Positions 15,594-63,088 of a stretch of 64,000 bases of DNA are shown here, piece by piece (within the stretch, counting starts at the first letter, position 1; each line of letters opens with the position of its first letter). Source of the DNA: a virus; IMG/VR virus record IMGVR_UViG_3300021171_000012, positions 6,984 to 70,983 of that record; one strand, written 5' to 3'. Below the pieces are notes generated by a model. That model saw only the letters and a list, made by a program, of their open reading frames with translations, ran no database searches and was not told the origin of the DNA. The position numbers were made by a program, and so were the translations under genes.

Positions 15594-16193
15594 TTACAAT
15601 TCCATAACCGCATCGGTTTTCGGGGCGGCCTTGGCGCGCTTGCGCTCTTTCGCGGGAATTACGCTTTTCCCGTCTTCGATTGCCGAGGCGATGATCGCGT
15701 CGAACAGATCCTTTCGACGCGCCTCACCCGTGGCGGTAACGGCCGTCGCACGTGCGGCCTTTTCTTCCTTGGTTGCCTTTTCCCCGAGCTCGCCATACCG
15801 CGCGGCGATCCGGTCGGCGATCTCATCGAAATATACCGACTCAAACGCATCCTTTTCCTTCGCGCTCGGTATGCTCGCGCCGCTCATCGCCTGAGCAACG
15901 CTTTCGACCAACGCCTTACCGTCGGTGTTCTGCCCGACGCGGTTCACGGCAAATTCGTAGATCGCCTGAAACGCAAAGGGCTGAAACGGTTCGGCAAGGT
16001 GAGCGAAGCCAACGGGTGCAGGAATGGGATAGAGCCGACCATCGTTGGCTCCCCACACCTGTCCATTGTGAACGCCACACTTGCGAAGCGCAGCGGATTT
16101 CAACCACGCTTCGTGATCGGCATTGGTATCGTTCGCATCCTTGCGAAGCGCGTCAACGTCGGTCAAGCGGCCAGCATGAACTGATTGTGCCAT
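15594..16193 (-). CDS. Hypothetical protein
   Basis: 199 aa, GAGGA RBS, basic tail ending DAVMEL. Confidence 0.65.
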   Translation of the reverse strand: MAQSVHAGRLTDVDALRKDANDTNADHEAWLKSAALRKCGVHNGQVWGANDGRLYPIPAPVGFAHLAEPFQPFAFQAIYEFAVNRVGQNTDGKALVESVAQAMSGASIPSAKEKDAFESVYFDEIADRIAARYGELGEKATKEEKAARATAVTATGEARRKDLFDAIIASAIEDGKSVIPAKERKRAKAAPKTDAVMEL

Positions 16194-16842: not shown

Positions 16843-17229
16843 ATGCCAGGCAAACCAGCCCGCTTCATCCCCGGCGCGATCTTTGGACAATTACGAGTGC
16901 TGTCCCGCCGCATGAGTCCATACGGCGTTTTACAGAACAGAGTCACTGTTGAGTGCTCTTGTGGGAATGTCATAGAAGTAACAACGCCAGCGCTCGCCGC
17001 TGGTAAGACCGACTGCGGCTGCTCTAAGCGTGGAGCTGTTGTTGACGATGCCTTGAATTGGACTTGGAAGAACATAATGGACCGAAACCACGATCGAGTC
17101 TGTAGTAGATGGCAAGACTTCAACAACTTCTATACTGACATGAATCCACGCCCAGAAGGAACAAAACTTTCTCTAAAGAATAAAGACGGACTATACGAGC
17201 CCGATAATTGCTTCTGGGAGGAAATATAA
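16843..17229 (+). CDS. HNH homing-endonuclease-like protein, degenerate active site
   Basis: FGQLRV...CSCGN...GKTDCGC, VCSRWQDFNNFYTDM..RP, YEPDNCFW; the usual SIDRID motif is replaced by LSLKNK. Confidence 0.7.
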   Translation: MPGKPARFIPGAIFGQLRVLSRRMSPYGVLQNRVTVECSCGNVIEVTTPALAAGKTDCGCSKRGAVVDDALNWTWKNIMDRNHDRVCSRWQDFNNFYTDMNPRPEGTKLSLKNKDGLYEPDNCFWEEI

Positions 17230-17810
17230 TGCCCATTACACAAGCTCGAATGCTTGAGGTCGTAACGGCTGCATCAAAGATTCTAGACCATGCAAAATCT
17301 ATAGCCGACGAGACTAAGTTCATTAGACAAAACCAAGTTCAACACGCAATCAATACTATGAGCGCCGAGGTCAACCTAGACATAGAAAACAATCCGCGCG
17401 ACAAGATCATATACGAGCAATTCAAAAGCGTCTTAGACGTAATAGATCAGATAGTAGAGAAAACAAACAATATAATAGATTTTAAAACCCTATTGATAAT
17501 CGGAAAAGAACAATCCCATTTCGCCGCGCGAGGAAAAAGCAACGACTGGGCTCGAGAGCATCGAAGAAAAAAGCGTAACGAAACAGCAAGTTCCAATTCA
17601 GGACTACCATTAAATCTATTCGATAACGTGCTAGAAGTTCTAGATGTAGAACCGCAAACCGCAGCAGAGATCATAAACAACATGGACGAGTCAGTCTCAA
17701 TCACCCTAGACGAGGTTCAATACATTCTAAACGATCTCGCAACCCAAGGGCGAATTTCTAAAGTCGGTTCAGATTCTTGGAAGATCATGAGCGCAGCAGT
17801 CGAGATATGA
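17229..17810 (+). CDS. Hypothetical protein with a C-terminal winged helix
   Basis: PQTAAEII...LDEVQYILNDLATQGRISKVGSDSW. Confidence 0.55.
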   Translation: MPITQARMLEVVTAASKILDHAKSIADETKFIRQNQVQHAINTMSAEVNLDIENNPRDKIIYEQFKSVLDVIDQIVEKTNNIIDFKTLLIIGKEQSHFAARGKSNDWAREHRRKKRNETASSNSGLPLNLFDNVLEVLDVEPQTAAEIINNMDESVSITLDEVQYILNDLATQGRISKVGSDSWKIMSAAVEI

Positions 17811-18012: not shown

Positions 18013-18390
18013 ATGCCCGCCCAATTAGTTCTTTTCCTCGACACCGTCGGCGTTCTCCACTGCGAAGCGCCTGGCGCTAACGGATCGCGGCGCAAGGTCG
18101 ATCTACCGTTCGATTTCGCGCAAGTAAATCCTGAGATCATGACTGAACTAAACGGACAGCTAGAAGCCGAACGCGATCGCAAACGCGCTGCGCTGCGCGA
18201 AATACAAAATCAGAACATCAACTATGTCGCGGTTGAACACGGTAAACACCTAGCTAAGAAAATCTGGAAAAATGGCGAGCTCGCCTTCAGTCGCGCAATT
18301 GCCCGCAAGCTCGCCCTAGTCGAGTCGGAAAAGCCAGTTAAGAAAAACGCACCGCGCCACACGGCACCGGGTGTCGTTTTGGAGATCTGA
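18013..18390 (+). CDS. Hypothetical early protein (C-term VVLEI)
   Basis: 125 aa ORF after the promoter. Confidence 0.65.
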   Translation: MPAQLVLFLDTVGVLHCEAPGANGSRRKVDLPFDFAQVNPEIMTELNGQLEAERDRKRAALREIQNQNINYVAVEHGKHLAKKIWKNGELAFSRAIARKLALVESEKPVKKNAPRHTAPGVVLEI

Positions 18391-18391
18391 A

Positions 18392-18655
18392 ATGCTAATC
18401 TCCACTCGCGAAATCGCCGGCGAAGTTTTCTATGTTTTGACCGACCCAACACGCGGCATCTATCGCCTCGCGTCGCAGAGTCGCGCCGACGCTCGACGCA
18501 CAATCCCGAAAGCACTCGCCGCGCCAAGTTCCGACTGGCTATCAGCGAGTCAATACCAAAAGGCGGTCGGAGTTCTTAGTCACGAGCGCAGCGAGTGCGC
18601 AGGCCGAGAAGTCTGTCGAGGAGTCTACCGCAATAACCCGATCCTAGAGATTTGA
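18392..18655 (+). CDS. Hypothetical early protein (C-term PILEI)
   Basis: GGAG RBS before ATG 18392. Confidence 0.55.
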   Translation: MLISTREIAGEVFYVLTDPTRGIYRLASQSRADARRTIPKALAAPSSDWLSASQYQKAVGVLSHERSECAGREVCRGVYRNNPILEI

Positions 18656-18685
18656 CGAGCGCAGCGAGCACCTAAGAGGCTTAGA

Positions 18686-18934
18686 ATGTCCATCTTCACC
18701 AAGCGCCACTACATCTGGCTCGCCAGCGTCGGTCGAGACCAGATGACAGAAGCGAGAGCAGTCGGTGGAGCTAGCGGAGCTAGCGCGGTACTGATAAGTC
18801 TACTGACTCTTGCCGACGCCCTCGCGAACGAAAGTCCCGACGGTTTCGATCGAGACTTATTTCTCGAAAACTGTGGAGTCTTTTCCTCAAACCCGGAGAT
18901 GAGAAATGTCCACTCCAAAGGCACAGCCGATTAG
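18686..18934 (+). CDS. Hypothetical early protein
   Basis: GAGG RBS; FTKRHY...LAD.L..E...FDRDLFL..CG pattern seen in small phage proteins. Confidence 0.6.
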   Translation: MSIFTKRHYIWLASVGRDQMTEARAVGGASGASAVLISLLTLADALANESPDGFDRDLFLENCGVFSSNPEMRNVHSKGTAD

Positions 18935-19148
18935 ACTCAGCCTATGGCGCCTTGTCAACGGCGCGGATCAGGTTGAGTACGACTACGGAAGCAACAACCA
19001 CGAAACCAGCGTGGCAATCGCTAGTTTAAATCTCGACTATCTAATGGCCGAGTCGGATCTCGACGCCCACACTATTTGCGACCTCGTTCGCCCGATCATG
19101 CTCGACCTTCAGCGCGTTTGGCTGGACTCTAAACGGAGGACAGTCTGA
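18906..19148 (+). CDS. Hypothetical protein
   Basis: GGAG upstream; TGATG coupling to the next gene. Confidence 0.5.
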   Translation: MSTPKAQPIRLSLWRLVNGADQVEYDYGSNNHETSVAIASLNLDYLMAESDLDAHTICDLVRPIMLDLQRVWLDSKRRTV

Positions 19149-20791
19149 TGATCGGCGACAACCCTGCCGCGGAATTGTGGGATCATATCACCATACTATT
19201 GGGTGATAGTAATCTAAATCCTAATACTCTGCAAGCCTCGGACCTCAGAGTTCGCCTCACTCTAAAGTCTGCAATCCGCCAATGGATAATCGCCAAGGGC
19301 GTCTCCGAGCGCACCGCGGCTGGAATGGGCGACGTCGGGCTTGCCAAGTGCGTTTCGATCGGCAATGTCTATATCAATGGCATTATCCGCCGCGAGGCGG
19401 AGGAACAGGACGGCCGGCGTAAAGTCCGCGGGGGCGATCGCTTCGGACGCAACGATGTTTTAGACTTAGACAGCCCACCCAAAGTTTTTAAGCCGGACGA
19501 AACTCCGAAACTCGGCGATCTCCTTGGAACTCCGAAAGTCGAAAATGAGATCGAAAAACCGAAACCCCAATTCGATCTCGATGACCTAGCAAAGGCCGCC
19601 GATGCCGTTATCGCTCCCCGTATTCACGCAGCGACAGCGGCGCTCACAGGTTCAGTCGCGGAGGCAGTTAAGACCTATACACGCACTGAGATCGAGAGAA
19701 TCGGTCTAGGCAATAACTTATCTAAAGAGATCGAAGATCTGGTCGAGCGGTCTACGATCGCTGCGGTTGAGAAGCTAATGCCGCGAGCGATCGACTTAAG
19801 AATGCCCCACGGCGAAAACCGTATCCTAAAAGCCGAACCGAGGCATCGAAAGTTCGACGTGATTCTCAAGTGGCTCTCAACCGGACAGCATGTTTATGCC
19901 GTTGGGCCAAAAGGCTCCGGTAAGACCCACATGGGAGTGCAGTTAGCAGAGGCGCTCGATCTAAAGTTCTATCCGATAGCGCAAGCGTTGACAAAGTACG
20001 ACCTCAGCGGCTATACCAGCCCCACCGGCGAGTATATCAAGACGCTGATGCGAGATGTGATCGAGCATGGTGGTCTAGCTCTGATCGACGAAGGCGATAT
20101 GTGGGCAGCAGCGGCATTAGGCTTCCTAAATAGCGCGCTCGCGAATAACTTCATCGCCTTCCCCGACAAGGTTATCGAGGTCCACAAGGACTTCCGATGC
20201 CTGTTAGCGGCGAACACTTTCGGAACCGGCGCCGATCGCCAGTATGTCGGCCGTAATCCCCTTGACGCCGCATCCCTCGACCGCTTTGCTTTCGAGGTTA
20301 TCGACTACGACCCCGATATGGAAAGGCAGATATTCGGCCCAAGTGCGTGGCTCGACTATGTTCACCGAGTTCGCTCAGCGTGCAGTCAACTCAATCTTCC
20401 GCACCTAATTCCCTCGATGCGTGCGATCTCAAAAGGACTAAAGGGCTATTCTGTCGATATGGATGCGGACTCGATAGCAGCAAGTTCAATCTGGATGGGC
20501 GCCGCGCAGGACACAATCTCTAAGATCAAAAACATCGCCGGTGAGCCACCACGGGTTAAGGAAAAGCAAAACGTCGAATCTCCTATCAATAACGACTATT
20601 ATACAATGCGGGACTTTAGAGACTTCGTTGTAAAGGATCAAATGATTGATGCAATCAAAGTTCTAAGAGTCCAGTTCCCCAATCTTGGCCTCAAAGACGC
20701 TAAAGACCTAACCGAGAACTACCGCGACGGCCTTAAGACTATCGGCGATGTCTGCATAATCGCCGCGGAGAAGGAAAGGGCCGTCGCATGA
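19148..20791 (+). CDS. MoxR/CobS-like AAA+ ATPase with a C-terminal ribosomal L7/L12-like domain
   Basis: Walker A GPKGSGKT, Walker B LIDEGD, AANTFG.GADRQYVGRN.LDAASLDRF; tail IDAIKVLR...LGLKDAKDLTE. Confidence 0.85.
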   Translation: MIGDNPAAELWDHITILLGDSNLNPNTLQASDLRVRLTLKSAIRQWIIAKGVSERTAAGMGDVGLAKCVSIGNVYINGIIRREAEEQDGRRKVRGGDRFGRNDVLDLDSPPKVFKPDETPKLGDLLGTPKVENEIEKPKPQFDLDDLAKAADAVIAPRIHAATAALTGSVAEAVKTYTRTEIERIGLGNNLSKEIEDLVERSTIAAVEKLMPRAIDLRMPHGENRILKAEPRHRKFDVILKWLSTGQHVYAVGPKGSGKTHMGVQLAEALDLKFYPIAQALTKYDLSGYTSPTGEYIKTLMRDVIEHGGLALIDEGDMWAAAALGFLNSALANNFIAFPDKVIEVHKDFRCLLAANTFGTGADRQYVGRNPLDAASLDRFAFEVIDYDPDMERQIFGPSAWLDYVHRVRSACSQLNLPHLIPSMRAISKGLKGYSVDMDADSIAASSIWMGAAQDTISKIKNIAGEPPRVKEKQNVESPINNDYYTMRDFRDFVVKDQMIDAIKVLRVQFPNLGLKDAKDLTENYRDGLKTIGDVCIIAAEKERAVA

Positions 20792-20979
20792 CCGACAACG
20801 CTAACAGCGCGGTAATGTGGCGAGTGAACTATCATGCACCGCGTAGCAGACTAGAAAAATACGGAAGCGTTCTAGTTCTAGCTGAGCGGGCAGATGAGGC
20901 TATAAGGCAGACCATCGGTATGACATTAGCCTTAAAACTGGGCAAGGTAAAAATAATAAGTGCCGAGGTAGAGCCATGA
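20788..20979 (+). CDS. Hypothetical protein
   Basis: ATGA overlaps on both sides. Confidence 0.45.
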   Translation: MTDNANSAVMWRVNYHAPRSRLEKYGSVLVLAERADEAIRQTIGMTLALKLGKVKIISAEVEP

Positions 20980-22070
20980 CCACCGACTGGCCAATCTGGA
21001 AAACCCGCTTAGGCCTAGTCCCAGATCAAGATAAGGGTCTTAAGCCGCAACCGAATGACGAAGAGGATCTCGACTTTGAAGATCAAGATCCTCTAGATGA
21101 GGACGGTGATGATCTAGACCCGGATCTTGACGAGCAACGCGAGCAGACACCGCAACGTGGACAGCTAGATGATCCCCTAGAATGGGAAACATCAGTTATA
21201 CCGTTCCCGACTAAGGTCGCCCTCCCCCCGTGCAACGCCCGCGACTTCAATTCGTGGAGCGAGTTCGTCGAAAGCACCACGGACGAATCATTAGTTGGTT
21301 GGAAAGGTCGCCGCGCTAGTCGCGATGAGTCGGACAAAAATCAAAAATCAAACCCATGGTCCGGGACCGCAACCTGGCAGCAAGCCGTCGACATGGCAAC
21401 TAGGACAGGCTGGCCCGAAGGACGTAAGCTCTTAAGCGAAATGCTCGTTGCGATCAGTCCACGACCGGAGCCCTACAGGACACTAGAATATAGTGTCGCC
21501 GGCGCGTTCCCAATGGTCCCAAACTATTGCGCCGGCGATCCCGAGTGTATGGTTATAGATCCGGGGTCGGATCTTAGACACGCTAAGCCAATTATTCGGA
21601 TCGACTACAATCACTGGGTAAGTGCCTATGTAACCCCGAAAGACATGATGCTCCGCGGCGCCGCGATAATTAGTCTCGCCGACAGTCTCGAGCGAACCGG
21701 CTTCAGCGTTGAGCTTCGGATTGTCGGAAACTCTCGCAGCCATTATTCTAGCAAGGAGTTCCGCTACTCTATAGTCTATAAGCGCGCTGGGGAGATACTA
21801 GACCTCGACCGTGCGGCATTTGCAATCGCCCATCCGAGTTCGATGCGAAGACTAGCTTTTGCAATCCTCGAACAACACTACGAATGCGAACAGGCATTCT
21901 CCGTCGGCTACGGCCAACCCATGTACGAGTCGAACGACAAGTCAAGCGACGCAATCTTCGTCCCTGGAAGTCGCGGCGGAGAGACACCAGAGTCTGCAAA
22001 AGCAGCGGTTGAGAAAGCCGCAGAAAGACTCCTTACCGAGATCCAAGAAAACCGAGAAGTAGGAGACTAG
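20976..22070 (+). CDS. vWA-like (CobT-like) partner of the AAA+ ATPase
   Basis: Acidic N-terminus; AGAFP.VP.Y.AGDPECM; RGAAI..L.D.LE..G..VEL; FAIAHPSSMRRL; near the MoxR-like ATPase. Confidence 0.65.
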   Translation: MTTDWPIWKTRLGLVPDQDKGLKPQPNDEEDLDFEDQDPLDEDGDDLDPDLDEQREQTPQRGQLDDPLEWETSVIPFPTKVALPPCNARDFNSWSEFVESTTDESLVGWKGRRASRDESDKNQKSNPWSGTATWQQAVDMATRTGWPEGRKLLSEMLVAISPRPEPYRTLEYSVAGAFPMVPNYCAGDPECMVIDPGSDLRHAKPIIRIDYNHWVSAYVTPKDMMLRGAAIISLADSLERTGFSVELRIVGNSRSHYSSKEFRYSIVYKRAGEILDLDRAAFAIAHPSSMRRLAFAILEQHYECEQAFSVGYGQPMYESNDKSSDAIFVPGSRGGETPESAKAAVEKAAERLLTEIQENREVGD

Positions 22071-22176
22071 AAGTGACTAACCTTTACCGCGTATCCCGGA
22101 TCAGGACTACGAAAGTCTAACCTTTGCTATCTACGACCCACCGATTGGAAAAGTATCTCGTTCTAGGAGAACAGAA

Positions 22177-22386
22177 ATGACCGACAAAGACACTGAATTG
22201 CTAAAGAAAGCTGTAAGAGCAGCATTAGACGCTACTCAAGGCCCACACACCGATGAAGAGTTCGAAATTAGATGGAAATTTAACCCAGATCCAGAGCACG
22301 TCAGACTTGGTGGTCCCTGGTATTTACTTCAAGTGGCACAGATAGTCCTTGAAGTCTTTAAGAAAGACCGCGGAGAAGCGCAATGA
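22177..22386 (+). CDS. Hypothetical protein
   Basis: AGGAG RBS. Confidence 0.55.
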   Translation: MTDKDTELLKKAVRAALDATQGPHTDEEFEIRWKFNPDPEHVRLGGPWYLLQVAQIVLEVFKKDRGEAQ

Positions 22387-22724
22387 CCAACAAAGTCGAA
22401 AAGGTCTATACCCTTCCAATCGTCGGAAGTAGGTTCCATCCTCCAGCTGATGATATTCTCGAGGTCATTGCTATCGGAACTCTGCTAATCCTCCGGGCCG
22501 ATCCCCACAACCGTTTCGACGAAAACGCCATCGGCATTTGGATTGCTAAGATCGACTCCCCAATCAAGACCACTCTTCGTCAACCCGAATATCACCTTGG
22601 CTTCATTCCGAAAGACCTCGCAAAAGTTCTCCGAGAACGAGGCTTTCCCACTGACACCGACATCCCCGGTGAATTCTATTTAAAGTCCGACAGCAACCAA
22701 CCCCACATTAGGTTCCAGCTATGA
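22383..22724 (+). CDS. HIRAN domain protein
   Basis: IVGSRFH...LRADPHNRFDENAI...LGFIPK. Confidence 0.8.
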   Translation: MTNKVEKVYTLPIVGSRFHPPADDILEVIAIGTLLILRADPHNRFDENAIGIWIAKIDSPIKTTLRQPEYHLGFIPKDLAKVLRERGFPTDTDIPGEFYLKSDSNQPHIRFQL

Positions 22725-22826
22725 GACTTCGACTAACCAATCGCGACCGGCGAATAATCGCCGCCTGGAAGAAGGACTTACTCACTACCCCTGACGATCT
22801 ACTATCCAAACCAAAGGAGACTAGCC

Positions 22827-23144
22827 ATGAAACCAGTATCGAGGACTATCGTCGTCGTTGGCGCGGTACTAAGCAGCCTCGCCGCGTGCGCCCCGACAAC
22901 CTACATCCGCCCCGGAACACCCGTTCAGGTCGCAAACATTGACCGTGCTCAGTGTGCACTTTTTGCGCAGACGACCGACCCCGGCTACCATGACCCAAAT
23001 ACGGGAAACTGGAAAGCAAACGTCGCGCTCTCTGTCGTCGATGGCATAAGCCGCGGTCTTACGATCGCCGGGAACTTCCGACTTTGCATGGAGGCTCGGG
23101 GTTATGAGGCGGTTCAAGCAGGGGCAAACAATGTCCGACAGTGA
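22827..23144 (+). CDS. Lipoprotein
   Basis: Signal with LAAC lipobox; D.AQC...F.LCMEARGY. Confidence 0.65.
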   Translation: MKPVSRTIVVVGAVLSSLAACAPTTYIRPGTPVQVANIDRAQCALFAQTTDPGYHDPNTGNWKANVALSVVDGISRGLTIAGNFRLCMEARGYEAVQAGANNVRQ

Positions 23145-23406
23145 AATCCCGGCTATCAACGAGGACCTAATTCGTCGCTATTTCGAGGCCGGCGACCTGA
23201 AGAACCTTCTCTCGATTTTTAACTTCCAACAACGATGCAAGAACCGAGCAGAAGAGCTTAGTCGGGCATATCTCGCCCAGATGGTCGTTCTCGGAAAGAC
23301 TCTCGACGCTCTACGCGAGGGACTCAAGCCCGAAAGACCAGAGAAGTCTGAAGCGAAGAAACCGAAATCCGAAGCCCTGTCGAAGTCCCAAGTTCTCGAC
23401 ATCTAG
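23131..23406 (+). CDS. Hypothetical protein (C-term QVLDI)
   Basis: Coiled-coil, Lys-rich linker. Confidence 0.55.
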   Translation: MSDSEIPAINEDLIRRYFEAGDLKNLLSIFNFQQRCKNRAEELSRAYLAQMVVLGKTLDALREGLKPERPEKSEAKKPKSEALSKSQVLDI

Positions 23407-23419
23407 AAGGATCAACCTC

Positions 23420-23953
23420 ATGACAACAGCCAACCCCACAACCCGCGAGTTCATGTCCCACACAATCGAACTCACCGACGATCTCAGGTTTAAAGTAACG
23501 GGAGAGGAGTTCGCTAACAACCAGCCCCGCGACTGCATTTTCAACAGCCTAGTCGACGCCAAAGCTAGGATCGAGAAGTTAGTGTCAGAGACAAGTAAGG
23601 TTCGAGCCCAGAACATCGTTCTCGCTCTATCGGTTCTTCAAGAAGACGGAACAGTCGTTAGGGTAACGAAAATCAACCGCCGCGATGGAACTATGAATGA
23701 CGTCTCGGGAAGATACGTTTACCCTAACACCGACTGGCTCAGAGGTATAATCCGTGAGCATACAAGACTCAACGTCGAGGCACGAAAACTCTATAATATA
23801 ATGTCCTCAGTACAAATAAGTGTGACGCGCAGATACGGCCGCATTGCAGCAGAGAGCTATGGCCAAGCTATCTCAGAACTCAAAAAGCAATACGACGAGA
23901 TGCTCGCTCTCGCAAAGAAAATGGAATTCGAAGCAGCCAAAGTAAGTTCCTGA
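23420..23953 (+). CDS. Hypothetical protein
   Basis: 177 aa, AAGGA RBS. Confidence 0.6.
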   Translation: MTTANPTTREFMSHTIELTDDLRFKVTGEEFANNQPRDCIFNSLVDAKARIEKLVSETSKVRAQNIVLALSVLQEDGTVVRVTKINRRDGTMNDVSGRYVYPNTDWLRGIIREHTRLNVEARKLYNIMSSVQISVTRRYGRIAAESYGQAISELKKQYDEMLALAKKMEFEAAKVSS

Positions 23954-23983
23954 TCTAAGTTCCTAAAAGGAAAGTCCCAAATC

Positions 23984-24277
23984 ATGCCTACAATCACACC
24001 AGAGAACAACGACGAAGTTAGACTGGACCTCGTTATTCGGAAGCACTCGAACTTAGGAACGGTGATAGTTCCTATATCCGGTAGGATCTGCGAAACCGAT
24101 GCTAGTCGCGAAGCCGTCTCAGTCACAATCGAAGTAAAGCCATATAAGCTCGTCGCACTCATTGCAATCGCAGACCTGGAATGGAACTCTGTCGAGTCTG
24201 TGTGGAAGGTCAAGACTCCAGTTCTCGACAAACCTCCAGGATCAGACGAGATAACCCCTTACCGCGTAGTCAGCTAA
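23984..24277 (+). CDS. Hypothetical protein
   Basis: 97 aa, AAGGA RBS. Confidence 0.5.
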   Translation: MPTITPENNDEVRLDLVIRKHSNLGTVIVPISGRICETDASREAVSVTIEVKPYKLVALIAIADLEWNSVESVWKVKTPVLDKPPGSDEITPYRVVS

Positions 24278-24342
24278 ATTTAGTCGGATAGCTATTGTAT
24301 GCCTCCTATTCCACACGCCTATCCTGTGGATAAGTATGCCCC

Positions 24343-24372
24343 TTGACCCCTATATGCCTTCCATGCTACACT
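24343..24372 (+). promoter_or_regulatory. Candidate sigma70 promoter
   Basis: TTGACC-N18-TACACT with TGn extension; flanked by TATGCC motifs and a TGTGGATAA box (24325-24333). Confidence 0.55.
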
Positions 24373-24399
24373 CTTAACTCAAAACAAAGGACTAGCCAA

Positions 24400-24642
24400 A
24401 TGCCAAAGTCGCTAGACCAAATGACCCCCCAGGAAGCATATAAGAAAGCCGAAGAACTGCGCAAATTCGGCATCGAATTACACCATTATGCAAAAGAGAT
24501 CATGGGTCTAACAGACCCTGAGATCCTAACCGCCTGCGTTCAGATTATAGACAAAGTTATCAGCGAGCTTGCTGGAAATCACCCTCTCGAAGCGATCATG
24601 CGAGTCGCAACTGCAGAGATAATCGTCCGAGGACATATCTAA
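24400..24642 (+). CDS. Hypothetical protein
   Basis: AAGGA RBS before ATG 24400. Confidence 0.55.
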   Translation: MPKSLDQMTPQEAYKKAEELRKFGIELHHYAKEIMGLTDPEILTACVQIIDKVISELAGNHPLEAIMRVATAEIIVRGHI

Positions 24643-25040
24643 TGAATCGCGAAGCGGAACTCGCTAAACTCGCCGCAGATCCCGATCCTGCTGTCCGACG
24701 CTGGGCCGAGATCGACATGCTACCCGATGAACAAGAAGCATGTTCCGTTATTCATAGCAACGGGACTATTAGGCTCGTTGTTCTAAGATCCAACAGAATT
24801 GCGATCTTCGGCCAGGACGGTCAGCTCTATAAGATCCTCGATGACGCACCCTCGACTGAAGAACTTCGCCGGCTCTCGGAAGAGTTACGAATCAAGCTAA
24901 GCCAAAAAAGTGCCGCCTGGTTCTACGGAGAGCCATCAGACTCAGAGTTCAAACGCGATCTCAAACGGGCCGAACGCGCAGAGCAAGCACAGACTAGACG
25001 CCGAAACATACCATCACCGGCTCAAGTTCTCGACATTTAA
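24642..25040 (+). CDS. Hypothetical protein (C-term QVLDI)
   Basis: 132 aa, TAATG coupling. Confidence 0.6.
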   Translation: MNREAELAKLAADPDPAVRRWAEIDMLPDEQEACSVIHSNGTIRLVVLRSNRIAIFGQDGQLYKILDDAPSTEELRRLSEELRIKLSQKSAAWFYGEPSDSEFKRDLKRAERAEQAQTRRRNIPSPAQVLDI

Positions 25041-25056
25041 CAAGGAACGAATTATC

Positions 25057-25326
25057 GTGCCCACTAAACATCTTCAGCTATCCGAGCTAATAGATCGTGA
25101 AGCTCGCTTTATCGCAACCGAGATCCTCGAAGCTCGATTGACTAAATTCGATCTCCCACTACCGAAAGAGTCTGCACTCGACATTCATATTGATGCAATT
25201 CTAGCTGCAAAGCCGGAACTCTATGAGCAGGCAAAAACTCGTGTCGAAGCTCGAAAGGACGCCTTTAGCGAGGCCCTTCGCGCGATCGACATAGAAGTCG
25301 AGATCGCCCAAGTGTTGGACATCTAA
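25057..25326 (+). CDS. Hypothetical helical protein (C-term QVLDI)
   Basis: AAGGA RBS, GTG start. Confidence 0.6.
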   Translation: MPTKHLQLSELIDREARFIATEILEARLTKFDLPLPKESALDIHIDAILAAKPELYEQAKTRVEARKDAFSEALRAIDIEVEIAQVLDI

Positions 25327-25331
25327 GTTCG

Positions 25332-25559
25332 ATGACCTTATTGGCAGATTCTGCTCGAAACATCCTGCGCGAGGCAATAGTCTCGGAGTTAGGAATAGTC
25401 GTTCGAGTTCAACCAACTTCTGACATGATCGCCCCCGCGCTAAGAGCGAAGCAAGTATTATATAGATTCCGACAAGAAGATTCGGATTTTGCAACATTAC
25501 AGATCGTCCTATCCCCCACAGACCCAGACCGAGAAATCTGGATCATTAAGAAGGACTAA
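25332..25559 (+). CDS. Hypothetical protein
   Basis: 75 aa in operon. Confidence 0.55.
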   Translation: MTLLADSARNILREAIVSELGIVVRVQPTSDMIAPALRAKQVLYRFRQEDSDFATLQIVLSPTDPDREIWIIKKD

Positions 25560-25561
25560 GA

Positions 25562-25765
25562 ATGCCCACCGTCTCTAGCGAACCCCTCATTCGCGTCTGT
25601 ATTCGAGTCCGAAAGGCCGACTACGATTACATCCGAACGGTCACTGAGACCGTTGACGCAGGTGGGATTAACCTAATAATCCGAACCGCCATTCACAGCT
25701 ATGTGACCCAGCTAAAAGCCATCGAAAGACGGAATCTCGACAAACTAGAAAGCCCCACAAAATGA
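25562..25765 (+). CDS. Ribbon-helix-helix-like small DNA-binding protein
   Basis: RVCIRVRKADYDYIR...INLIIRTAIHSYV. Confidence 0.5.
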   Translation: MPTVSSEPLIRVCIRVRKADYDYIRTVTETVDAGGINLIIRTAIHSYVTQLKAIERRNLDKLESPTK

Positions 25766-26022
25766 AGAGCCAGGCCGAAACCCCACACGAACAACACAAT
25801 AGACTAGCCTACGAATTAGGCTTAAGGATACTAACTGAAGTCCCCGACACAATTAACCAGATAATCATCCTCGAAAGTATAGTATCTGGTATCATTAGTA
25901 TGTTTCCGTATAAAGACGAAAAGAGCCGAGAGAAAGCTTTAGACTTTCTTCTAGACGAAATAACAACCGCAGTACGCAAGCGGGTTTTAGAAAAGCCCTT
26001 AGTAAGCAGGAAATCAACATGA
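25762..26022 (+). CDS. Hypothetical protein
   Basis: ATGA coupling. Confidence 0.5.
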   Translation: MKSQAETPHEQHNRLAYELGLRILTEVPDTINQIIILESIVSGIISMFPYKDEKSREKALDFLLDEITTAVRKRVLEKPLVSRKST

Positions 26023-26273
26023 CCCACCGCAGAGCAGGTCTAATGACCCACCGCTTCATTACTCACGCGCGGAACATGGAAGAATTAAGGTCCGAGTTCA
26101 TTTCGGACATCAACAGACGACTGAACATCGTCATGCTCAGAATAAAGAACGCCCCATCAGCGCGCCGATCAGCTAGTCTAGTCCTCCTTCGTGAGGAACT
26201 CGAAAGTCAAAAGGAATTTTGGGAAGACATCGAGTTCGCCGCGCTCAGGAAGAAGGGAGCTCCAGTTCCGTGA
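26019..26273 (+). CDS. Hypothetical protein
   Basis: ATGA coupling; MTHR duplicated at the N-terminus. Confidence 0.5.
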   Translation: MTHRRAGLMTHRFITHARNMEELRSEFISDINRRLNIVMLRIKNAPSARRSASLVLLREELESQKEFWEDIEFAALRKKGAPVP

Positions 26274-26449
26274 CAGAGGATCTATCAAGTTATCAATCGT
26301 CAGAGACAGCGTGGCGTTATGATTCTGCCATTTTCCGCGCCGAGTGTGATATCAAACAGGCTCGCCTAGACTTAGATAAAGCAGAGAAACGTCTAAAAGA
26401 TTTAAAAGATAAACCGCCGCTCTATCATCTATTTAATTGGAGCGCATAA
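26270..26449 (+). CDS. Hypothetical protein
   Basis: GGAG RBS, GTGA coupling. Confidence 0.45.
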   Translation: MTEDLSSYQSSETAWRYDSAIFRAECDIKQARLDLDKAEKRLKDLKDKPPLYHLFNWSA

Positions 26450-26452
26450 GAA

Positions 26453-26773
26453 ATGACCGACACCCCAAATCCAAATCTCAAAGCAGCTTTAGTCGGATCG
26501 CTGAGATTGATAGAGTCTGAGTCGGAACCGCAAAGTGGAACCGACGAATCCCCGCTTCGCGAGGCTACAGTCGACAGTGTAGACTATTTCCTCGACCGGA
26601 TTAATCAAAAGCTCATTGACGGAATGCCAGTTCCGAATCAGGACTTAGAGCAGCTAGCGAACTTCTATCGAGCACAAGCTCTAAAGTGGGCTCAAGAGGA
26701 GGACATTAAGAAGACAAAGTCCCAAACCAAGCGCGAAAAGAAATTCGCCCCCGGAGAGATTATGGACATATAA
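26453..26773 (+). CDS. Hypothetical protein (C-term EIMDI)
   Basis: 106 aa, GGAG RBS. Confidence 0.6.
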   Translation: MTDTPNPNLKAALVGSLRLIESESEPQSGTDESPLREATVDSVDYFLDRINQKLIDGMPVPNQDLEQLANFYRAQALKWAQEEDIKKTKSQTKREKKFAPGEIMDI

Positions 26774-27078: not shown

Positions 27079-28206
27079 ATGTCAATGTCTGATCTAATTT
27101 CGACCATCGAAGAAGTAAAAACCGAAACAGACTCGGCTCTTCGGCCCGTAAACACCGCATTCTCAACCAAGGTGCCGAATTTGCAGCTATATCTAGACTC
27201 AACAAGCCTTGGTGATTTCAAAAGCTGCGCCCAACTTTATAAATATAGGATCATAGACGGTTATTCCTCACCCTATAGCTCGACCGATTTATTCTTCGGA
27301 ATTTTATTCCACTCTGCAACCGAGGTCTATGAACGCTCTCGCGCGTCGGGCATCCCTCACGACGAAAGTGTTATTGATGCTCTCCGTCACGCGGTCATGG
27401 CAACCTGGGACAACGAAAAAAAGCGCCCTTGGACTTCAGATGTCACAGACAAGAGCAGGAACACGCTCCTACGAACTATAGTTTGGTATTTAGACACCTT
27501 TAAGGACGAAAATCTTAAGACGGTAGTATTTCCCAATGGCGATCCTGCAGTCGAAGTCTCGTTTCGCTTCGATACCGGGATTCGTACAGAGGCTAAATTC
27601 GAGTGTCCAGTTTGTTTTGGAGCTGGTGCTGCCAAAATTAGTGGAGCTCGGAAGTCCGAAGATAGTCCTGGCGACATCGAATTTACTATAGAGCAATGTA
27701 CTGAATGTAACGGAACCGGAGCTGTTGGTGAACCGTTTTACCTCTGCGGGCATCTCGACCGTGTAGTCTACTGGAACTCCGAACTATGGATCATGGACAA
27801 GAAGACAACGCGATACGCACTTGATGATAACTACTTTCGCCAGTTCTCCCCCGATAATCAGATGAGTCTCTATAGTGTCGCCGGCGCCGTGACACTGGAG
27901 TCTGAAGTCGGTGGGCTTATCATTGACGGATGTCAAGTGTTAGTCACAGGATCTCGCTTCCGACGCAAAACCATCCCACGCTCCCCCGAGCAGCTTGAGG
28001 AATGGCTCGTTAGTCTAAAACATTGGCTCCACTGGCTTGAGTATTGCGCCAAGAACGATTATTGGCCGCAGAACGAACGAAGCTGCGGCTACGGTAATCG
28101 CCAATGCCAATTCCGACCCGTCTGCTCTAGTGACCCAAGCACTCGGCAAGAAATGCTCGACGGGATGTACGTTAGAAGGACTTGGGATCCCCTAATTCCG
28201 AGATAG
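27079..28206 (+). CDS. Cas4/RecB-like PD-(D/E)xK exonuclease with an inserted DnaJ-type Zn finger
   Basis: KSC...G..FH; GHLDRV...IMDKKTT...Q...Y; C-terminal C..C..C; insert CPVCFGAG...CTECNGTG. Confidence 0.8.
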   Translation: MSMSDLISTIEEVKTETDSALRPVNTAFSTKVPNLQLYLDSTSLGDFKSCAQLYKYRIIDGYSSPYSSTDLFFGILFHSATEVYERSRASGIPHDESVIDALRHAVMATWDNEKKRPWTSDVTDKSRNTLLRTIVWYLDTFKDENLKTVVFPNGDPAVEVSFRFDTGIRTEAKFECPVCFGAGAAKISGARKSEDSPGDIEFTIEQCTECNGTGAVGEPFYLCGHLDRVVYWNSELWIMDKKTTRYALDDNYFRQFSPDNQMSLYSVAGAVTLESEVGGLIIDGCQVLVTGSRFRRKTIPRSPEQLEEWLVSLKHWLHWLEYCAKNDYWPQNERSCGYGNRQCQFRPVCSSDPSTRQEMLDGMYVRRTWDPLIPR

Positions 28207-33723: not shown

Positions 33724-34112
33724 TGCGCGACGACTGGCTTCACTTAGAATTTTACAGATTCAAGCATAAGCTACCAGACTATCAAAGTCAATTCGGAGAT
33801 AAACATGGATGTTTTATATTACAACATCCAAAGACCAAAGCAATGTTGAGAATGATAGTATCAAATGGAGACTATAAAGCCGCTAGGGTAGGTCCAGAGT
33901 ATGCTTGGGAACATGTTTCAGTCTCTATAGAGAATCGCTGTCCAACATGGGAAGAAATGGACTACGTTAAGGATTTGTTCTGGAAACCAGACGAGTGCGT
34001 GATGCAACTGCATGTTCCTAAGGCGGAACATAAGAATTGTCATCAATATTGCCTACACCTTTGGCGACCACTAGAAACTACAATACCTCGGCCACCAGTT
34101 GGGGCTGTATAA
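33723..34112 (+). CDS. Conserved phage protein inserted between the two polymerase halves
   Basis: WEHVSVS..NRCPTWEEM..VKDLFW...CLHLWRP. Confidence 0.7.
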   Translation: MRDDWLHLEFYRFKHKLPDYQSQFGDKHGCFILQHPKTKAMLRMIVSNGDYKAARVGPEYAWEHVSVSIENRCPTWEEMDYVKDLFWKPDECVMQLHVPKAEHKNCHQYCLHLWRPLETTIPRPPVGAV

Positions 34113-34115
34113 ATA

Positions 34116-50598: not shown

Positions 50599-51144
50599 TT
50601 AAATGTCTAATACAATGCCGGGTATGGCCTTGCTTATACGTACTCGTGAAGATTTCGTAGTAGCTAATACATTATCAATCTCATCGTATTCTCTATATAG
50701 GCGAATAGTGGTTAGAGCCTCCGCTAATTGTGCAACATCTGCCCACAACGCAGGATTACTCTGCTTCAATCCACCATGTATGTCCCTACTGCAACATGCA
50801 AGTACCGCCAGTCTCCATATAGCAAAATCTGAAGCCTTTTTTGCACGAAGCGGGTACTTATCAAATATATCTACTAGAACTCTGCAATCTTCCCGGGCGC
50901 TAACTGCATACACAACTGTTGGATTCAAACGACTATGATCTCTATCTGCGTATATATTGCCTACCCCCACTTTATTACGTACTTCCACTAAAATCTTATA
51001 ATCGTCTGCGCGCAGACGAAGTTGAAAACTACATGTATATCCATATCTATTCTTTCCACGCTCAACGCGTCGAGTTATACTGAAACTACCTTCTCCATCG
51101 GTAAATCCTGCAAACCAATGAAAAAATGCATCATCTTCAGACAT
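50599..51144 (-). mobile_element. Free-standing single-motif LAGLIDADG homing endonuclease (C-term IVLDI)
   Basis: WFAGFTDGEGSFSI...D..IL......GVG.I...FDKYPL..KK..DF..W. Confidence 0.88.
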
Positions 51145-62398: not shown

Positions 62399-63088
62399 TT
62401 ATATCTCCAAGACAGAAGAGTGTTTGATACGTGGGGAGCTTAACCTTCGCACAATTGGAGGCGCAGGTTTAATGTTTACTACTTCTGGTACGCTACTATC
62501 AGGCTCAACTTTTCCAGATAGTGTAGCGATTACATCCTGGCAAAACTGCAAGAACTGTCCGTCGGTAAACTCTCCGCGGGCTCTATTTGCTTGATATGTT
62601 ACGAGACGAATGTTGCCTTCAACGTATCCTAAACTAGCTTCTATCCTATCAACTGACAGCGTATCGCGATGCCAGCCTCCTTGACCCCATAATAGTTTAC
62701 GGCCAGTCAAAGCACATAACCCGTCTTGCATCTCATATACATCTTTTACATACTCCGGTGTAATCTCGAAGACAATACCTTTAGCCTCACACTGTCGCCG
62801 ACGCACATGGAAAGCCATTCGCATACAGTCTAGAAATTCACTTCTAGCTCTAACATAGGCCCGGCGCCGGTTATTACTATATCGAGTCGGATCTTCAATG
62901 TTCTTGCGTTTGTGGCAAGCCAGTGAGTGTGGATTGTTCTTTTGAATGTGACAATCTTTACAGTCCGATCTGTAATTATTCAGACCGTCGCCGCGCTTAA
63001 AGAACTCGGTCACTGACTTTGTTTCGCCACACGTTCCGCATTTCTTGTAGCCAACGCTGTTGCTAAGTGGTATATTGTTCACGGCCAT
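62399..63088 (-). mobile_element. HNH-type homing endonuclease (C-term SVLEI)
   Basis: KKC..C.E.K...EF...CK.C; Q.G.CALTG...SVDRI....GY..GNI.LV...AN; AGGAG RBS before ATG 63088. Confidence 0.8.

What the first reader, a model, noticed from the sequence alone, without database searches (positions are those of the whole stretch)
18013..26773. A shared C-terminal peptide tag, [VI][LM][DE]I-COOH, on many unrelated phage proteins
Seen: six otherwise dissimilar early ORFs end in nearly the same residues: 18013..18390 APGVVLEI, 18392..18655 NNPILEI, 23131..23406 SKSQVLDI, 24642..25040 SPAQVLDI, 25057..25326 EIAQVLDI and 26453..26773 APGEIMDI. Two late-arm homing endonucleases do the same (50599..51144 IPGIVLDI, 62399..63088 HSSVLEI). 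Weaker variants are 15594..16193 DAVMEL and 17229..17810 AAVEI. Most tags follow a Lys/Arg/Pro-rich, probably disordered linker. Codons differ among copies (CTC/TTG/CTA/TTA for Leu, ATC/ATT/ATA for Ile, all three stops), so the conservation is at protein level and is not a DNA repeat. Established parallels are the C-terminal clamp-binding motif shared by T4 gp33/gp55/gp43, SSB tails, PDZ ligands and ClpX degrons; none of these has this consensus as far as I know. Inference: the phage uses a genome-wide addressing code that docks a set of proteins on one hub, such as a host clamp, RNAP, protease or a phage-encoded receptor. This is the best candidate here for an undescribed system.
Basis: partly seen in the sequence, partly recalled or inferred. 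Interest (0 to 1): 0.9.

Follow-up and report, generated by a model that had tools for sequence, protein, structure and literature searches.

The report
Shared docking tail on phage proteins
Eight otherwise unrelated proteins of this uncultured soil phage end in the same four-residue tail, and related phages put their own spelling of that tail on the matching proteins, so it behaves like an address label read by one partner that is still not identified.

Summary
Eight of 107 called genes of this 71-kb siphophage end in [VI][LM][DE]I. The same four-residue pattern occurs once in 21,666 internal positions. Codon third positions and flanks are random, so the conservation is in the protein.

Five related phage lineages put a tail on the orthologous small proteins, each with its own spelling (xLDLDL; ΦIxI[TDK]L; A[LI]DL; A[IV][DE]I[DE]L; A[IV][DN]V[ED]I). 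The tail follows a Lys/Arg-rich linker. It has been gained and lost on single families, and here it sits on two homing endonucleases whose distant homologues lack it. This concerted change across unrelated proteins supports an address label read by one co-evolving partner.

The partner is not shown. My best candidate is the phage's own CobS/CobT-like MoxR ATPase and vWA-like protein, encoded among the tagged genes. The ATPase carries a basic patch plus a tag-like motif in its disordered linker in 24 of 24 clade members. The main rival is a host β-clamp, because the tail resembles the hexameric clamp-binding motif.

One complex prediction gave no answer. The scan has noted such tags before on other DNA, including a close relative. 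I found no description in the papers I searched.

The parts
18013..18390 (+). Tagged protein, family A (125 aa, ends GVVLEI)
   Evidence: orthologues in G001, G002, G003 and L004/L006 end in EILDLDL, VIDIKL, LAIDL and AIEIDL.
18392..18655 (+). Tagged orphan protein (87 aa, ends PILEI)
   Evidence: No homologue in the relatives. No Pfam or PHROG family.
23131..23406 (+). Tagged protein, family B (91 aa, ends QVLDI)
   Evidence: orthologues in G002 and G003 end in VIDIDL and LALDL.
24642..25040 (+). Tagged protein, family C (132 aa, ends QVLDI)
   Evidence: the orthologues in L004/L006 carry AIDIDL followed by four more residues; the G003 orthologue ends LAIDL.
25057..25326 (+). Tagged protein, family D (89 aa, ends QVLDI)
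   Evidence: Profile search: 12 of 25 strong hits end aliphatic-[DE]-hydrophobic, and 18 of 25 have that pattern within the last 9 residues.
26453..26773 (+). Tagged protein, family E (106 aa, ends EIMDI)
   Evidence: orthologues in G002 and L004 end in IIDITL and AVDIEL.
15594..16193 (-). Tagged protein, family F (199 aa, ends AVMEL), at the head of the minus-strand operon
   Evidence: the G003 orthologue (E 2e-22) ends AALDL after a similar basic linker.
50599..51144 (-). LAGLIDADG homing endonuclease with linker and tag (ends GIVLDI)
   Evidence: Pfam LAGLIDADG_1 covers residues 12-112. None of 14 homologues from elsewhere ends in this tag.
62399..63088 (-). HNH/endonuclease VII-like homing endonuclease with a 38-residue linker and tag (ends SVLEI)
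   Evidence: PHROG endonuclease families match residues 12-191. Seven of 9 aligned homologues stop at the end of the nuclease domain; the two closest have tails.
19148..20791 (+). CobS-like MoxR-class AAA+ ATPase, candidate reader or fellow client
   Evidence: Foldseek: CbbQ2 6l1q_A E 4.5e-11, TM (target) 0.73; NorQ 9qh4_F E 1.1e-10. Model mean pLDDT 80.
19415..19474 (+). Internal basic patch plus tag-like motif (V-L-D-L at residues 104-107) in the disordered linker of the ATPase
   Evidence: A comparable block stands in 24 of 24 aligned clade ATPases. pLDDT is below 50 for residues 94-140.
20976..22070 (+). DUF7192 protein: short N-terminal segment, long acidic disordered linker, C-terminal vWA-like domain (CobT-like layout); candidate reader
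   Evidence: Pfam DUF7192, alignment. VIA-align: MDN1 MIDAS 8ql1_A Z 5.8, rmsd 3.9, 145 aligned; NorD VWA 9qh8_G Z 5.3. The model is poor (mean pLDDT 56).
17229..17810 (+). Possible weak variant (ends AAVEI); membership undecided
   Evidence: no basic linker (3 K+R against 5 D+E). No orthologue.

Best explanation
The [VI][LM][DE]I end is this phage's spelling of a clade-wide C-terminal short linear motif: alternating aliphatic and acidic residues at or near the C-terminus, after a flexible Lys/Arg-rich linker. It works as an address label. It docks at least six conserved small proteins of the early/replication arm on one reader that co-evolves with the label. It also docks locally acquired carriers such as the two homing endonucleases.

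In this model the extended acidic-aliphatic tail is captured by the vWA-like domain or by the ATPase ring. The basic linker is steered by the partner's long acidic linker. The ATPase then remodels, loads or releases the client.

Shown: the enrichment; the protein-level selection; orthologous conservation with genome-specific spelling; gain and loss of the tail; the tag-like motif inside the ATPase linker; and the MoxR class of the ATPase.

Inferred: My odds are about 0.8 that the tail is a label read by one common partner, and about 0.4 that the partner is this ATPase/vWA pair.
For: (1) Enrichment: 8 of 107 genes against 1 internal match in 21,666 positions. Third codon positions and flanks are random.

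(2) Clade-wide enrichment: aliphatic-[DE]-aliphatic ends 30 of 489 genes in six clade records. Controls give 9 of 1,432 genes in 49 loci that hold only the ATPase core and 7 of 1,483 genes in 73 loci that hold the neighbouring exonuclease (odds ratio 11.8, P = 2.5e-15).

(3) Private spellings: each genome's own pattern hits 8, 5, 6, 4, 5 and 3 of its genes and almost none in the other genomes (matrix). L173 adds a sixth spelling on 6 of 29 ORFs.

(4) The tails sit on orthologues: families A-F. In family D, 12 of 25 strong profile hits end in the pattern and 18 of 25 have it within the last 9 residues, against 2 and 4 of 27 distant hits.

(5) Modularity: orthologues of 25332-25559 and 25562-25765 are tagged in L004/L006 or G002 but not here. 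The HNH tail is absent from 7 of 9 aligned homologues. The tag is absent from 14 of 14 LAGLIDADG homologues.

(6) Link to the ATPase: 24 of 24 clade ATPases hold a basic run followed by a tag-like block in an otherwise unalignable linker. The same holds in G001-G003, L004/L006 and L173. In this proteome [VI][LM][DE][IL] occurs internally only 5 times in 22,675 residues. One is in that linker behind 6 K/R, and one is in an invariant block of the vWA-like protein.

(7) The pair looks like CobS/CobT or NorQ/NorD. G001 has a different packaging module (no match to this TerL) but keeps the tags and the pair.

(8) Literature: a vWA MIDAS site takes a ligand from the target protein (PMC13036017, passages). 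vWA-MoxR pairs are proposed to capture an extended peptide of a substrate (PMC7159879, passages).
Against: No binding was shown.

The vWA-like assignment is weak. Z is 5.3-5.8, the tool warns that Z under 8 may be a common arrangement, and the model's mean pLDDT is 56. The canonical DxSxS of a MIDAS site is not present; the matching strand ends D-Y-N-H-W.

The tie between tags and the ATPase/vWA pair is confounded by descent, because all tag-bearing records form one clade.

Spelling-level covariation between the ATPase linker motif and the tags was not demonstrated. 145 of 720 permutations reached the observed score with BLOSUM 5-mers, and 50, 39 and 31 of 720 with identity 4-, 5- and 6-mers. 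A control region (the ATPase core) gave 5 of 720, so the test is unreliable.

In the ATPase model the linker motif is not docked on any domain (pLDDT 37-45).

L076, a more distant relative with tail-like motifs, shows no ATPase in the 8.9 kb available, although its contig ends there.

In L078 the ATPase linker does not obviously carry that phage's Phe-containing spelling.
Confidence: 0.45

Rival explanations
1. The tails are clamp-binding motifs. They hook the carriers, and through its internal copy the ATPase, onto the host's beta sliding clamp on DNA. This is how T4 hooks gp43, gp33 and gp55 onto gp45, and how bacterial polymerases and repair proteins use the clamp.
For: The review PMC11139829 (passages) defines the canonical motifs as Q-phi-x-[L/M]-[F/L] and Q-phi-x-[L/M]-x-[F/L]. 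It reports that Ile is tolerated at the last position and that motifs may be C-terminal, N-terminal or internal. It also reports that the free carboxylate or acidic flanks help binding, and that the phage-display winner was LQLELDF.

All 8 window tails fit [L/M]-x-[I] at positions 4-6. The relatives' tails fit phi-x-phi-x-L.

The carriers include two DNA endonucleases. A LAGLIDADG homologue from elsewhere ends in a Q-L-x-I-x-F type tail.

The T4 precedent: hydrophobic-acidic ends on divergent unstructured linkers, freely interchangeable (PMC2988020, passages).

Short C-terminal extensions are tolerated in L004, L006 and L173, as expected of a motif that is not anchored on the carboxylate.
Against: The conserved Gln is missing or out of register. 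In Q-V-L-D-I the fourth position is Asp, and only 2 of 8 window tails have an aliphatic residue at position 2.

The 'x' positions of the clamp motif are free in known clients. Here they are nearly always acidic and uniform within a genome.

The clamp pocket is highly conserved among bacteria (established knowledge), which fits poorly with private spellings.

The phage's own polymerase, helicase-primase and exonuclease lack the tail.

No DnaN or gp45 family is encoded by the phage, so the clamp would have to be the host's, and the host is unknown.
Confidence: 0.22
2. The tail is a C-terminal degron. A host protease, or a phage-directed one, recognises it and keeps early proteins and toxic nucleases short-lived.
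For: The tail is C-terminal, exposed on a flexible linker, and sits on early proteins and on nucleases whose level should be limited. Shared C-terminal degrons are an established principle (recalled, not from a call).
Against: An acidic residue next to the last residue is unusual for the classical nonpolar C-terminal degrons (recalled). Several relatives carry 1-6 extra residues after the motif. An internal copy sits in the ATPase linker, which a strictly terminal degron does not explain. The phage has no recognisable protease partner among the families searched.
Confidence: 0.1
3. The tails dock on another phage protein of the shared replication/recombination module: the split family-A polymerase, the helicase-primase, the RecA-like AAA_24 protein or the PD-(D/E)XK exonuclease. 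This would resemble the acidic, hydrophobic-ended tails of T7 gp2.5 and gp4, which dock on T7 polymerase (recalled).
For: The module is shared by all tag-bearing records, including G001 with its foreign packaging module. The tagged genes lie directly upstream of it. In more distant relatives the exonuclease itself ends in an acidic-aliphatic R-G-D-[IV] tail, and small upstream proteins have other acidic-hydrophobic tails.
Against: The same module occurs in 73 loci outside the clade, where multi-gene tails of this kind were not seen (7 of 1,483 genes). Nothing ties a particular module protein to the tag.
Confidence: 0.1
4. There is no reader. The endings reflect a DNA-level signal that overlaps stop codons (ribosome-binding site or promoter), copying of one 3' end between genes, or chance.
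For: In two cases (18390 and 62399) the codons for L-E-I hold a GGAG that lies 7-8 nt before the next start codon. Two tails (23406 and 25040) share 14 of 15 nucleotides.
Against: Third-position identity is 0.31 and flank identity 0.27-0.28 over 28 pairs. Distances to the next gene range from 2 to 31 nt. Five D-I tails hold no ribosome-binding sequence. The tail is kept on orthologues in other genomes with other spellings. The enrichment is far above chance.
Confidence: 0.03

Closest known systems
T4-family sliding-clamp-binding C-terminal epitopes of gp43, gp33 and gp55 (PMC2988020, passages read)
   Same: [quoted passage not shown] It is shared by otherwise unrelated proteins of one phage and can be interchanged between them.
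   Different: No gp45-type or DnaN-type clamp is detectable in this phage. The phage's own polymerase lacks the tail. The carriers are mostly small proteins of unknown function. Each related phage has its own spelling.
Bacterial beta-clamp-binding motifs, Q-phi-x-[L/M]-[F/L] and Q-phi-x-[L/M]-x-[F/L] (PMC11139829, passages read)
   Same: A short linear motif in disordered ends, often at the very C-terminus. Positions 4-6 read [L/M]-x-[L/F/I], and acidic flanks or the free carboxylate help binding.
   Different: Gln is absent or out of register. The free 'x' positions are fixed as acidic here. The spelling is uniform within a genome and differs between genomes.
MoxR AAA+ / vWA partner machines: NorQ-NorD (PMC13036017), CbbQ-CbbO and CobS-CobT (bioRxiv 10.64898/2026.10.09.757910), midasin MIDAS-UBL; peptide capture proposed for vWA-MoxR conflict systems (PMC7159879). 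Passages read.
   Same: An adjacent MoxR-class ATPase gene and a partner with an N-terminal segment, a long flexible linker and a C-terminal vWA-like domain. In the known systems the vWA site takes an acidic ligand from the client, and a partner's C-terminus contacts the ATPase pore loops.
   Different: Known systems serve one client, not a set of tagged proteins. The partner here lacks the canonical DxSxS and its fold match is weak. No tag code has been described for any of them in the passages I read.
FxSxx-COOH type small proteins with a zincin peptidase in vWA-MoxR ternary systems (PMC7159879, passages read)
   Same: Small, fast-diverging proteins whose conserved part is a C-terminal peptide, encoded beside a vWA-MoxR pair.
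   Different: Those are bacterial, have a dedicated peptidase that releases the peptide, and use other motifs. No peptidase was found here.

Membership tests
Bacterial beta-clamp-binding motif (CBM) | Gln at position 1, in register with [L/M] at position 4 (consensus quoted from PMC11139829) | tested here: not met
   Three of 8 window tails have Gln, but in Q-V-L-D-I position 4 is Asp. In the hexamer register Gln falls on position 2. The other 5 tails have no Gln.
Bacterial beta-clamp-binding motif (CBM) | [L/M] at position 4 and [F/L] (Ile tolerated) at the last position of the hexamer; aliphatic residue at position 2 | tested here: inconclusive
   Eight of 8 tails have [L/M]-x-I at positions 4-6. 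Only 2 of 8 (G-V-V-L-E-I and G-I-V-L-D-I) have an aliphatic residue at position 2.
Bacterial beta-clamp-binding motif (CBM) | Binds the hydrophobic pocket of the host clamp | not testable with these tools
   The host is unknown: the record comes from a soil metagenome, and no prophage relative turned up in 185,579 species genomes beyond one distant match, L148.
T4 gp45-type clamp clients | The phage encodes its own sliding clamp | tested here: not met
   Pfam DNA_PPF (PF02916) and DNA_pol3_beta (PF00712): 0 matches at E <= 1 in the 99%-complete genome. A divergent clamp could escape these two models.
T4 gp45-type clamp clients | The replicative polymerase carries the same tail | tested here: not met
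   The two polymerase halves end ...SLKRDE and ...SEIKIA.
MoxR AAA+ / vWA partner pair | ATPase of the MoxR class | tested here: met
   Foldseek best hits are CbbQ2 6l1q_A (E 4.5e-11, TM target 0.73) and NorQ (E 1.1e-10). Pfam AAA_5.
MoxR AAA+ / vWA partner pair | Adjacent partner with a vWA fold | tested here: inconclusive
   The best VIA-align rows are MIDAS/vWA domains (Z 5.8, 5.7, 5.3; 129-145 residues aligned; rmsd 3.9-4.6). Z is under 8 and the model's mean pLDDT is 56. No sequence match to any solved vWA chain.
MoxR AAA+ / vWA partner pair | MIDAS residues DxSxS...T...D (as quoted in PMC13036017) | tested here: not met
   The first strand ends in an invariant D-x-N, not DxSxS. Other invariant acidic residues (D276, D278, E336-T337) exist, but their geometry could not be checked.
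Clade-wide C-terminal tag (this report) | Tail on orthologues, with one spelling per genome | tested here: met
   Families A-F. Near-diagonal matrix of spellings. L173.

The most novel reading that the evidence does not exclude
The phage's CobS/CobT-like MoxR ATPase and vWA-like partner form a client-addressed remodelling machine. A private, fast-drifting peptide code on the C-termini of early proteins, copied onto newly acquired genes such as homing endonucleases, selects which proteins the machine grips. The ATPase's own linker carries a built-in copy as tether or pseudo-client.

Earlier notes of this scan report tag-plus-MoxR/vWA pairs in unrelated T4-like and N4-like phages. If that holds, this would be a general, undescribed class of phage protein-addressing system. 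It would also give a first function to the widespread phage 'cobS/cobT' genes.
Probability: 0.3. Interest if true: 0.88.

Novelty: new variant of a known kind. Interest (0 to 1): 0.78.

Why it matters
Most small early phage proteins have no known function. A shared, co-evolving tail says that at least six such families, plus two mobile endonucleases, act through one partner. That turns a list of orphans into one testable system: a single pull-down with a tagged reporter could name the hub.

If the hub is the phage MoxR/vWA pair, the widespread phage 'cobS/cobT-like' genes would gain a role, and MoxR machines would gain a new way of choosing clients. If the hub is the host clamp, this would be a new family of clamp-binding peptides, with private spellings, used by phages and their homing endonucleases.

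The genome-specific spellings also offer natural specificity-swap experiments.

Tried and rejected
- Near-identical DNA in 50,697 phage records: none. By protein, the closest cultured phage is Caulobacter phage Kuura, at 34.6% identity in the polymerase. The ATPase matches only its core in Staphylococcus, Listeria and Mycobacterium phages. So no cultured relative was available for comparison.
- A single-protein scan of viral contigs with the ATPase found nothing. The alignment-based scan worked.
- PHROGs and Pfam found no family for the six small tagged proteins or for family F. The protein atlas gave no usable hit for family F.
- Complex prediction, with E. coli DnaN as a stand-in clamp, DUF7192, ATPase residues 1-210 and the last 40 residues of 18013-18390: score 0.00, verdict 'no answer'. 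It counts neither for nor against any binding.
- The look-up of sequencing runs: one DNA run of a soil metagenome, which may be the source itself. No RNA holder is listed, so nothing can be said on expression.
- Genome scan for prophage relatives: only one distant ATPase with a similar N-domain (L148, an Alphaproteobacteria MAG). It has no tags and no linker motif, so there is no host clue.
- Spelling-level covariation between the ATPase linker and the tags: not demonstrated (numbers in the Against line).
- Other 'dialects' in the 49 ATPase-core loci: a generic search for three or more similar six-residue ends found nothing convincing.
- A profile of DUF7192 against solved structures gave only low-complexity acidic matches.
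G001 keeps the tags but had no match to this phage's TerL and no BLAST homologue for most head-operon genes.
- Papers. Searches (listings only, apart from the papers named above) showed no description of a phage-wide C-terminal tag of this kind. Supplementary files were not opened and could hold relevant tables.

Full report
WHAT THE WINDOW IS. The window is bases 6984-70983 of a single 70,983-bp virus record. CheckV rates the record 99% complete. About 125 bases at the two ends repeat with one mismatch, as in a circular assembly. The genes describe a siphovirus:
- virion genes: portal, large terminase, tape measure and tail proteins;
- a family-A DNA polymerase split into two genes;
- a primase-helicase, a PD-(D/E)XK exonuclease and an AAA_24 RecA-like protein;
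- a ParB-methyltransferase, a ribonucleotide reductase and a dNMP kinase.
No phage record is similar at DNA level. The closest cultured polymerase is 34.6% identical. The only sequencing run that holds the DNA is a soil metagenome, which may be the source itself. The host is unknown.

THE OBSERVATION. All eight endings are as described. In a greedy gene set, 7 of 104 genes end in [VI][LM][DE]I. The eighth, 24642-25040, was the only such ending among 384 left-over ORFs. Inside proteins the pattern occurs once in 21,666 positions. The motif was defined after looking, so I also used a looser pattern, aliphatic-[DE]-aliphatic at the end. That gives 10 of 107 genes against 0.72 expected.

The nucleotide rival fails. 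Over the 28 pairs of tails, identity is 0.86 at codon positions 1 and 2 but 0.31 at position 3, and 0.27-0.28 in the flanks. All three stop codons are used. In two cases a GGAG inside the L-E-I codons may double as the next gene's ribosome-binding site, but the five D-I tails hold none.

The eight proteins share no BLASTP similarity with each other.

RELATIVES. I therefore aligned 24 relatives of the ATPase and scanned viral contigs with that alignment. Six loci (L001-L006) match the ATPase over its whole length, including the N-terminal part. The other 49 loci match only the core.

In those six loci, and in none of the 49, several genes end alike. I fetched three whole records and called genes. 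Each genome has its own spelling:

| Record | Spelling | Genes |
|---|---|---|
| G001 | [LM]DLDL | 5 of 111 |
| G002 | [VIA]I[DEA]I[TDK]L | 6 of 61 |
| G003 | A[LI]DL | 4 of 132 |
| L004 | [VI][DEP]I[DE]L or the same with a short extension | 6 of 43 |
| L006 | as L004 | 6 of 35 |

L004, L005 and L006 are close relatives of one another and count as one lineage. A metagenome scan added L173, where 6 of 29 ORFs carry A-[IV]-[DN]-V-[ED]-I, some with 2-6 extra residues.

Applying each genome's pattern to every other genome gives a nearly diagonal matrix.

With the single loose pattern, the clade has 30 of 489 genes. Controls have 9 of 1,432 genes in the 49 ATPase-core loci and 7 of 1,483 genes in 73 exonuclease loci outside the clade (P = 2.5e-15). 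G002 scores only 1 of 61 with the loose pattern, because its next-to-last residue is mostly Thr.

ORTHOLOGY AND MODULARITY. All-against-all BLASTP shows that the tails sit on orthologues:

| Family | Window gene | Tail here | Tails on orthologues |
|---|---|---|---|
| A | 18013-18390 | GVVLEI | VIDIKL, LAIDL, EILDLDL, AIEIDL |
| B | 23131-23406 | QVLDI | VIDIDL, LALDL |
| C | 24642-25040 | QVLDI | AIDIDL plus four residues, LAIDL |
| D | 25057-25326 | QVLDI | AIEITL, AVDIDL, AMDLDL |
| E | 26453-26773 | EIMDI | IIDITL, AVDIEL |
| F | 15594-16193 | AVMEL | AALDL |

The alignment of family D places this phage's tail as the relatives' motif cut two residues short. So the distance from the motif to the free carboxylate is not fixed.

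A profile of family D searched against 1.84 billion representatives found 52 proteins. Of the 25 hits with E <= 1e-10, 12 end aliphatic-[DE]-hydrophobic and 18 have that pattern within the last nine residues, with final L, F, I or Y. Of the 27 weaker hits, the figures are 2 and 4.

The tail can be gained or lost. The orthologues of 25332-25559 and 25562-25765 are tagged in L004/L006 or in G002 but not here.

The two homing endonucleases are local carriers. Seven of 9 aligned HNH homologues stop at the end of the nuclease domain. Only the two closest (53-58% identity) have tails, and one of them ends N-L-E-I. None of 14 LAGLIDADG homologues ends in this tag.

The linker before the tail is basic: 4.48 K+R against 2.41 in 20 residues (29 tagged against 377 untagged proteins, P = 4e-8).

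WHAT THIS MEANS. Unrelated proteins keep a tail at the same place while all tails of a genome change spelling together. Synonymous sites are free. The tail can be moved onto new genes. That is the signature of a short linear motif read by one partner that co-evolves with it. Binding itself is not shown.

WHO READS IT.

1. The phage's own ATPase/vWA-like pair. The tagged genes surround two adjacent genes that all clade members share. The first, 19148-20791, is a MoxR-class ATPase: Foldseek finds CbbQ2 at E 4.5e-11 with TM 0.73 and NorQ at 1.1e-10. Its model (mean pLDDT 80) shows a helical N-domain (residues 1-90), a disordered linker (94-140), long helices, the AAA+ core and a small helical C-domain.

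The second, 20976-22070 (DUF7192), has a short conserved N-terminal segment, a long acidic disordered stretch and a C-terminal alpha/beta domain. The best structural neighbours of that domain are MIDAS/vWA domains: MDN1 at Z 5.8, Rea1 at 5.7 and NorD at 5.3. These Z-scores are low and the model is poor. The canonical DxSxS is absent. The layout resembles CobT as described in a 2026 preprint (passages).

In 24 of 24 aligned clade members a Lys/Arg-rich run is followed by a tag-like block. Here it is a run with 6 K/R in 14 residues, then V-L-D-L. The same is seen in G001-G003, L004/L006 and L173. In this proteome [VI][LM][DE][IL] occurs internally only five times in 22,675 residues. One is this site, and one lies in an invariant block of DUF7192.

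By eye the linker follows each genome's spelling. My permutation tests do not establish that: 145 of 720 with BLOSUM scoring, and 50, 39 and 31 of 720 with identity scoring. A control region behaved oddly, at 5 of 720. I report it as not shown.

The published background fits a capture model. A MIDAS site takes its sixth ligand from the target protein, and the NorD C-terminus contacts NorQ pore loops (PMC13036017). vWA-MoxR pairs are proposed to capture an extended peptide of a substrate (PMC7159879).

The association is confounded by descent, since all tag bearers form one clade.

2. The host beta clamp. The tail overlaps the C-terminal half of the hexameric clamp-binding motif, and the relatives' phi-x-phi-x-L matches positions 2-6 (PMC11139829). 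T4 offers a close precedent in form (PMC2988020).

Four points weigh against it. Gln is absent or out of register. The motif's free positions are fixed as acidic and are uniform within a genome. The spellings are private, although the clamp pocket is conserved. The phage's own replication enzymes are untagged. The phage encodes no clamp that the two Pfam models detect.

3. A degron, another phage replication protein, or no reader at all. These are treated under the rival explanations.

The single complex prediction combined the stand-in clamp, DUF7192, the ATPase N-part and one tail. It scored 0.00, which the tool calls no answer.

COMPARISON WITH WHAT IS KNOWN. In form, the tail works like the T4 clamp epitopes and bacterial clamp-binding motifs: a short hydrophobic-acidic end on a flexible linker, shared by unrelated proteins. 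It is not a member of those families by the tests I could run (Gln register, own clamp, tagged polymerase). The MoxR class of the ATPase is met. The vWA fold of the partner is inconclusive, and the canonical MIDAS is not met.

Four literature searches (listings only beyond the papers cited) showed no description of a phage-wide tag of this kind. I did not see supplementary files.

Earlier AI notes of this scan describe the same phenomenon on other DNA. They include a close relative with the L004-type spelling (e1-5948579) and several T4-like and N4-like phages said to carry a MoxR/vWA pair. I used them as leads only. I confirmed independently the relative's spelling and the linker motif, but not the claims about the other phages.

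VERDICT. The address-label reading is well supported by comparative evidence. I rate this as a new variant of a known kind of system (hub-docking terminal motifs), with a real chance of being the visible part of an undescribed phage addressing machine.

Noticed in passing
window 32524-35630: The family-A DNA polymerase is split into two genes, 32524-33723 (exonuclease part) and 34116-35630 (polymerase part). They are separated by a 129-aa DUF7694 ORF (33723-34112). Relatives G001 and G003 also have two polymerase genes.
   Followed up: partly
window 28419-29468 and relatives: The AAA_24 RecA-like protein ends in a conserved G-F-G-type tail (...GFGFRPN here...GGFGR...GGFGTK and ...QGFGKR in relatives). 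This is a second, different C-terminal motif kept across the clade.
   Followed up: no
window 27079-28206; loci L077, L081, L082, L126, L139: The PD-(D/E)XK exonuclease ends ...WDPLIPR throughout the tag clade. In more distant relatives it ends ...R-G-D-[IV], and small proteins just upstream there carry other acidic-hydrophobic tails (for example ...LLGDN...LSDLGL...ADVEF). Tails may be a wider habit of this replication module.
   Followed up: partly
L078 (2550-9940): A more distant relative with the ATPase and a DUF7192-like gene has a Phe-containing spelling on three small proteins (...ILFDDL...ALFDAL...VIFDL). The first starts with Q-x-x-L-F, close to the pentameric clamp-binding consensus.
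   Followed up: partly
window 59868-60386 (-): This 172-aa gene lies in the late arm here. Its homologues in G001, G003, L004 and L006 lie a few genes downstream of the vWA-like gene in the early arm, so it may belong to that module and has been moved in this phage.
   Followed up: no
window 22383-22724: A small HIRAN-domain protein (Pfam E 1.4e-5, just above the cut-off). It is conserved in 24 of the 80 exonuclease loci.
   Followed up: no
proteins P0135, P0137, P0138 (homologues of 50599-51144): LAGLIDADG homologues from other, unseen contexts end in or near Q-L-x-[IL]-x-[FS]-type tails. Other mobile endonucleases may carry their own docking tails.
   Followed up: no
G003 (L058-L062): The 92,987-bp record that IMG/VR classes as a provirus holds two sets of tail genes similar to this phage's (around 5.5-9 kb and 32-48 kb). 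I saw no obvious host flank. It may be a chimeric or concatenated assembly.
   Followed up: no
genome C1 1-127 and 70857-70983: The record's two ends repeat about 125 bases with one mismatch, as expected of a circularly assembled contig rather than a true terminal repeat.
   Followed up: no
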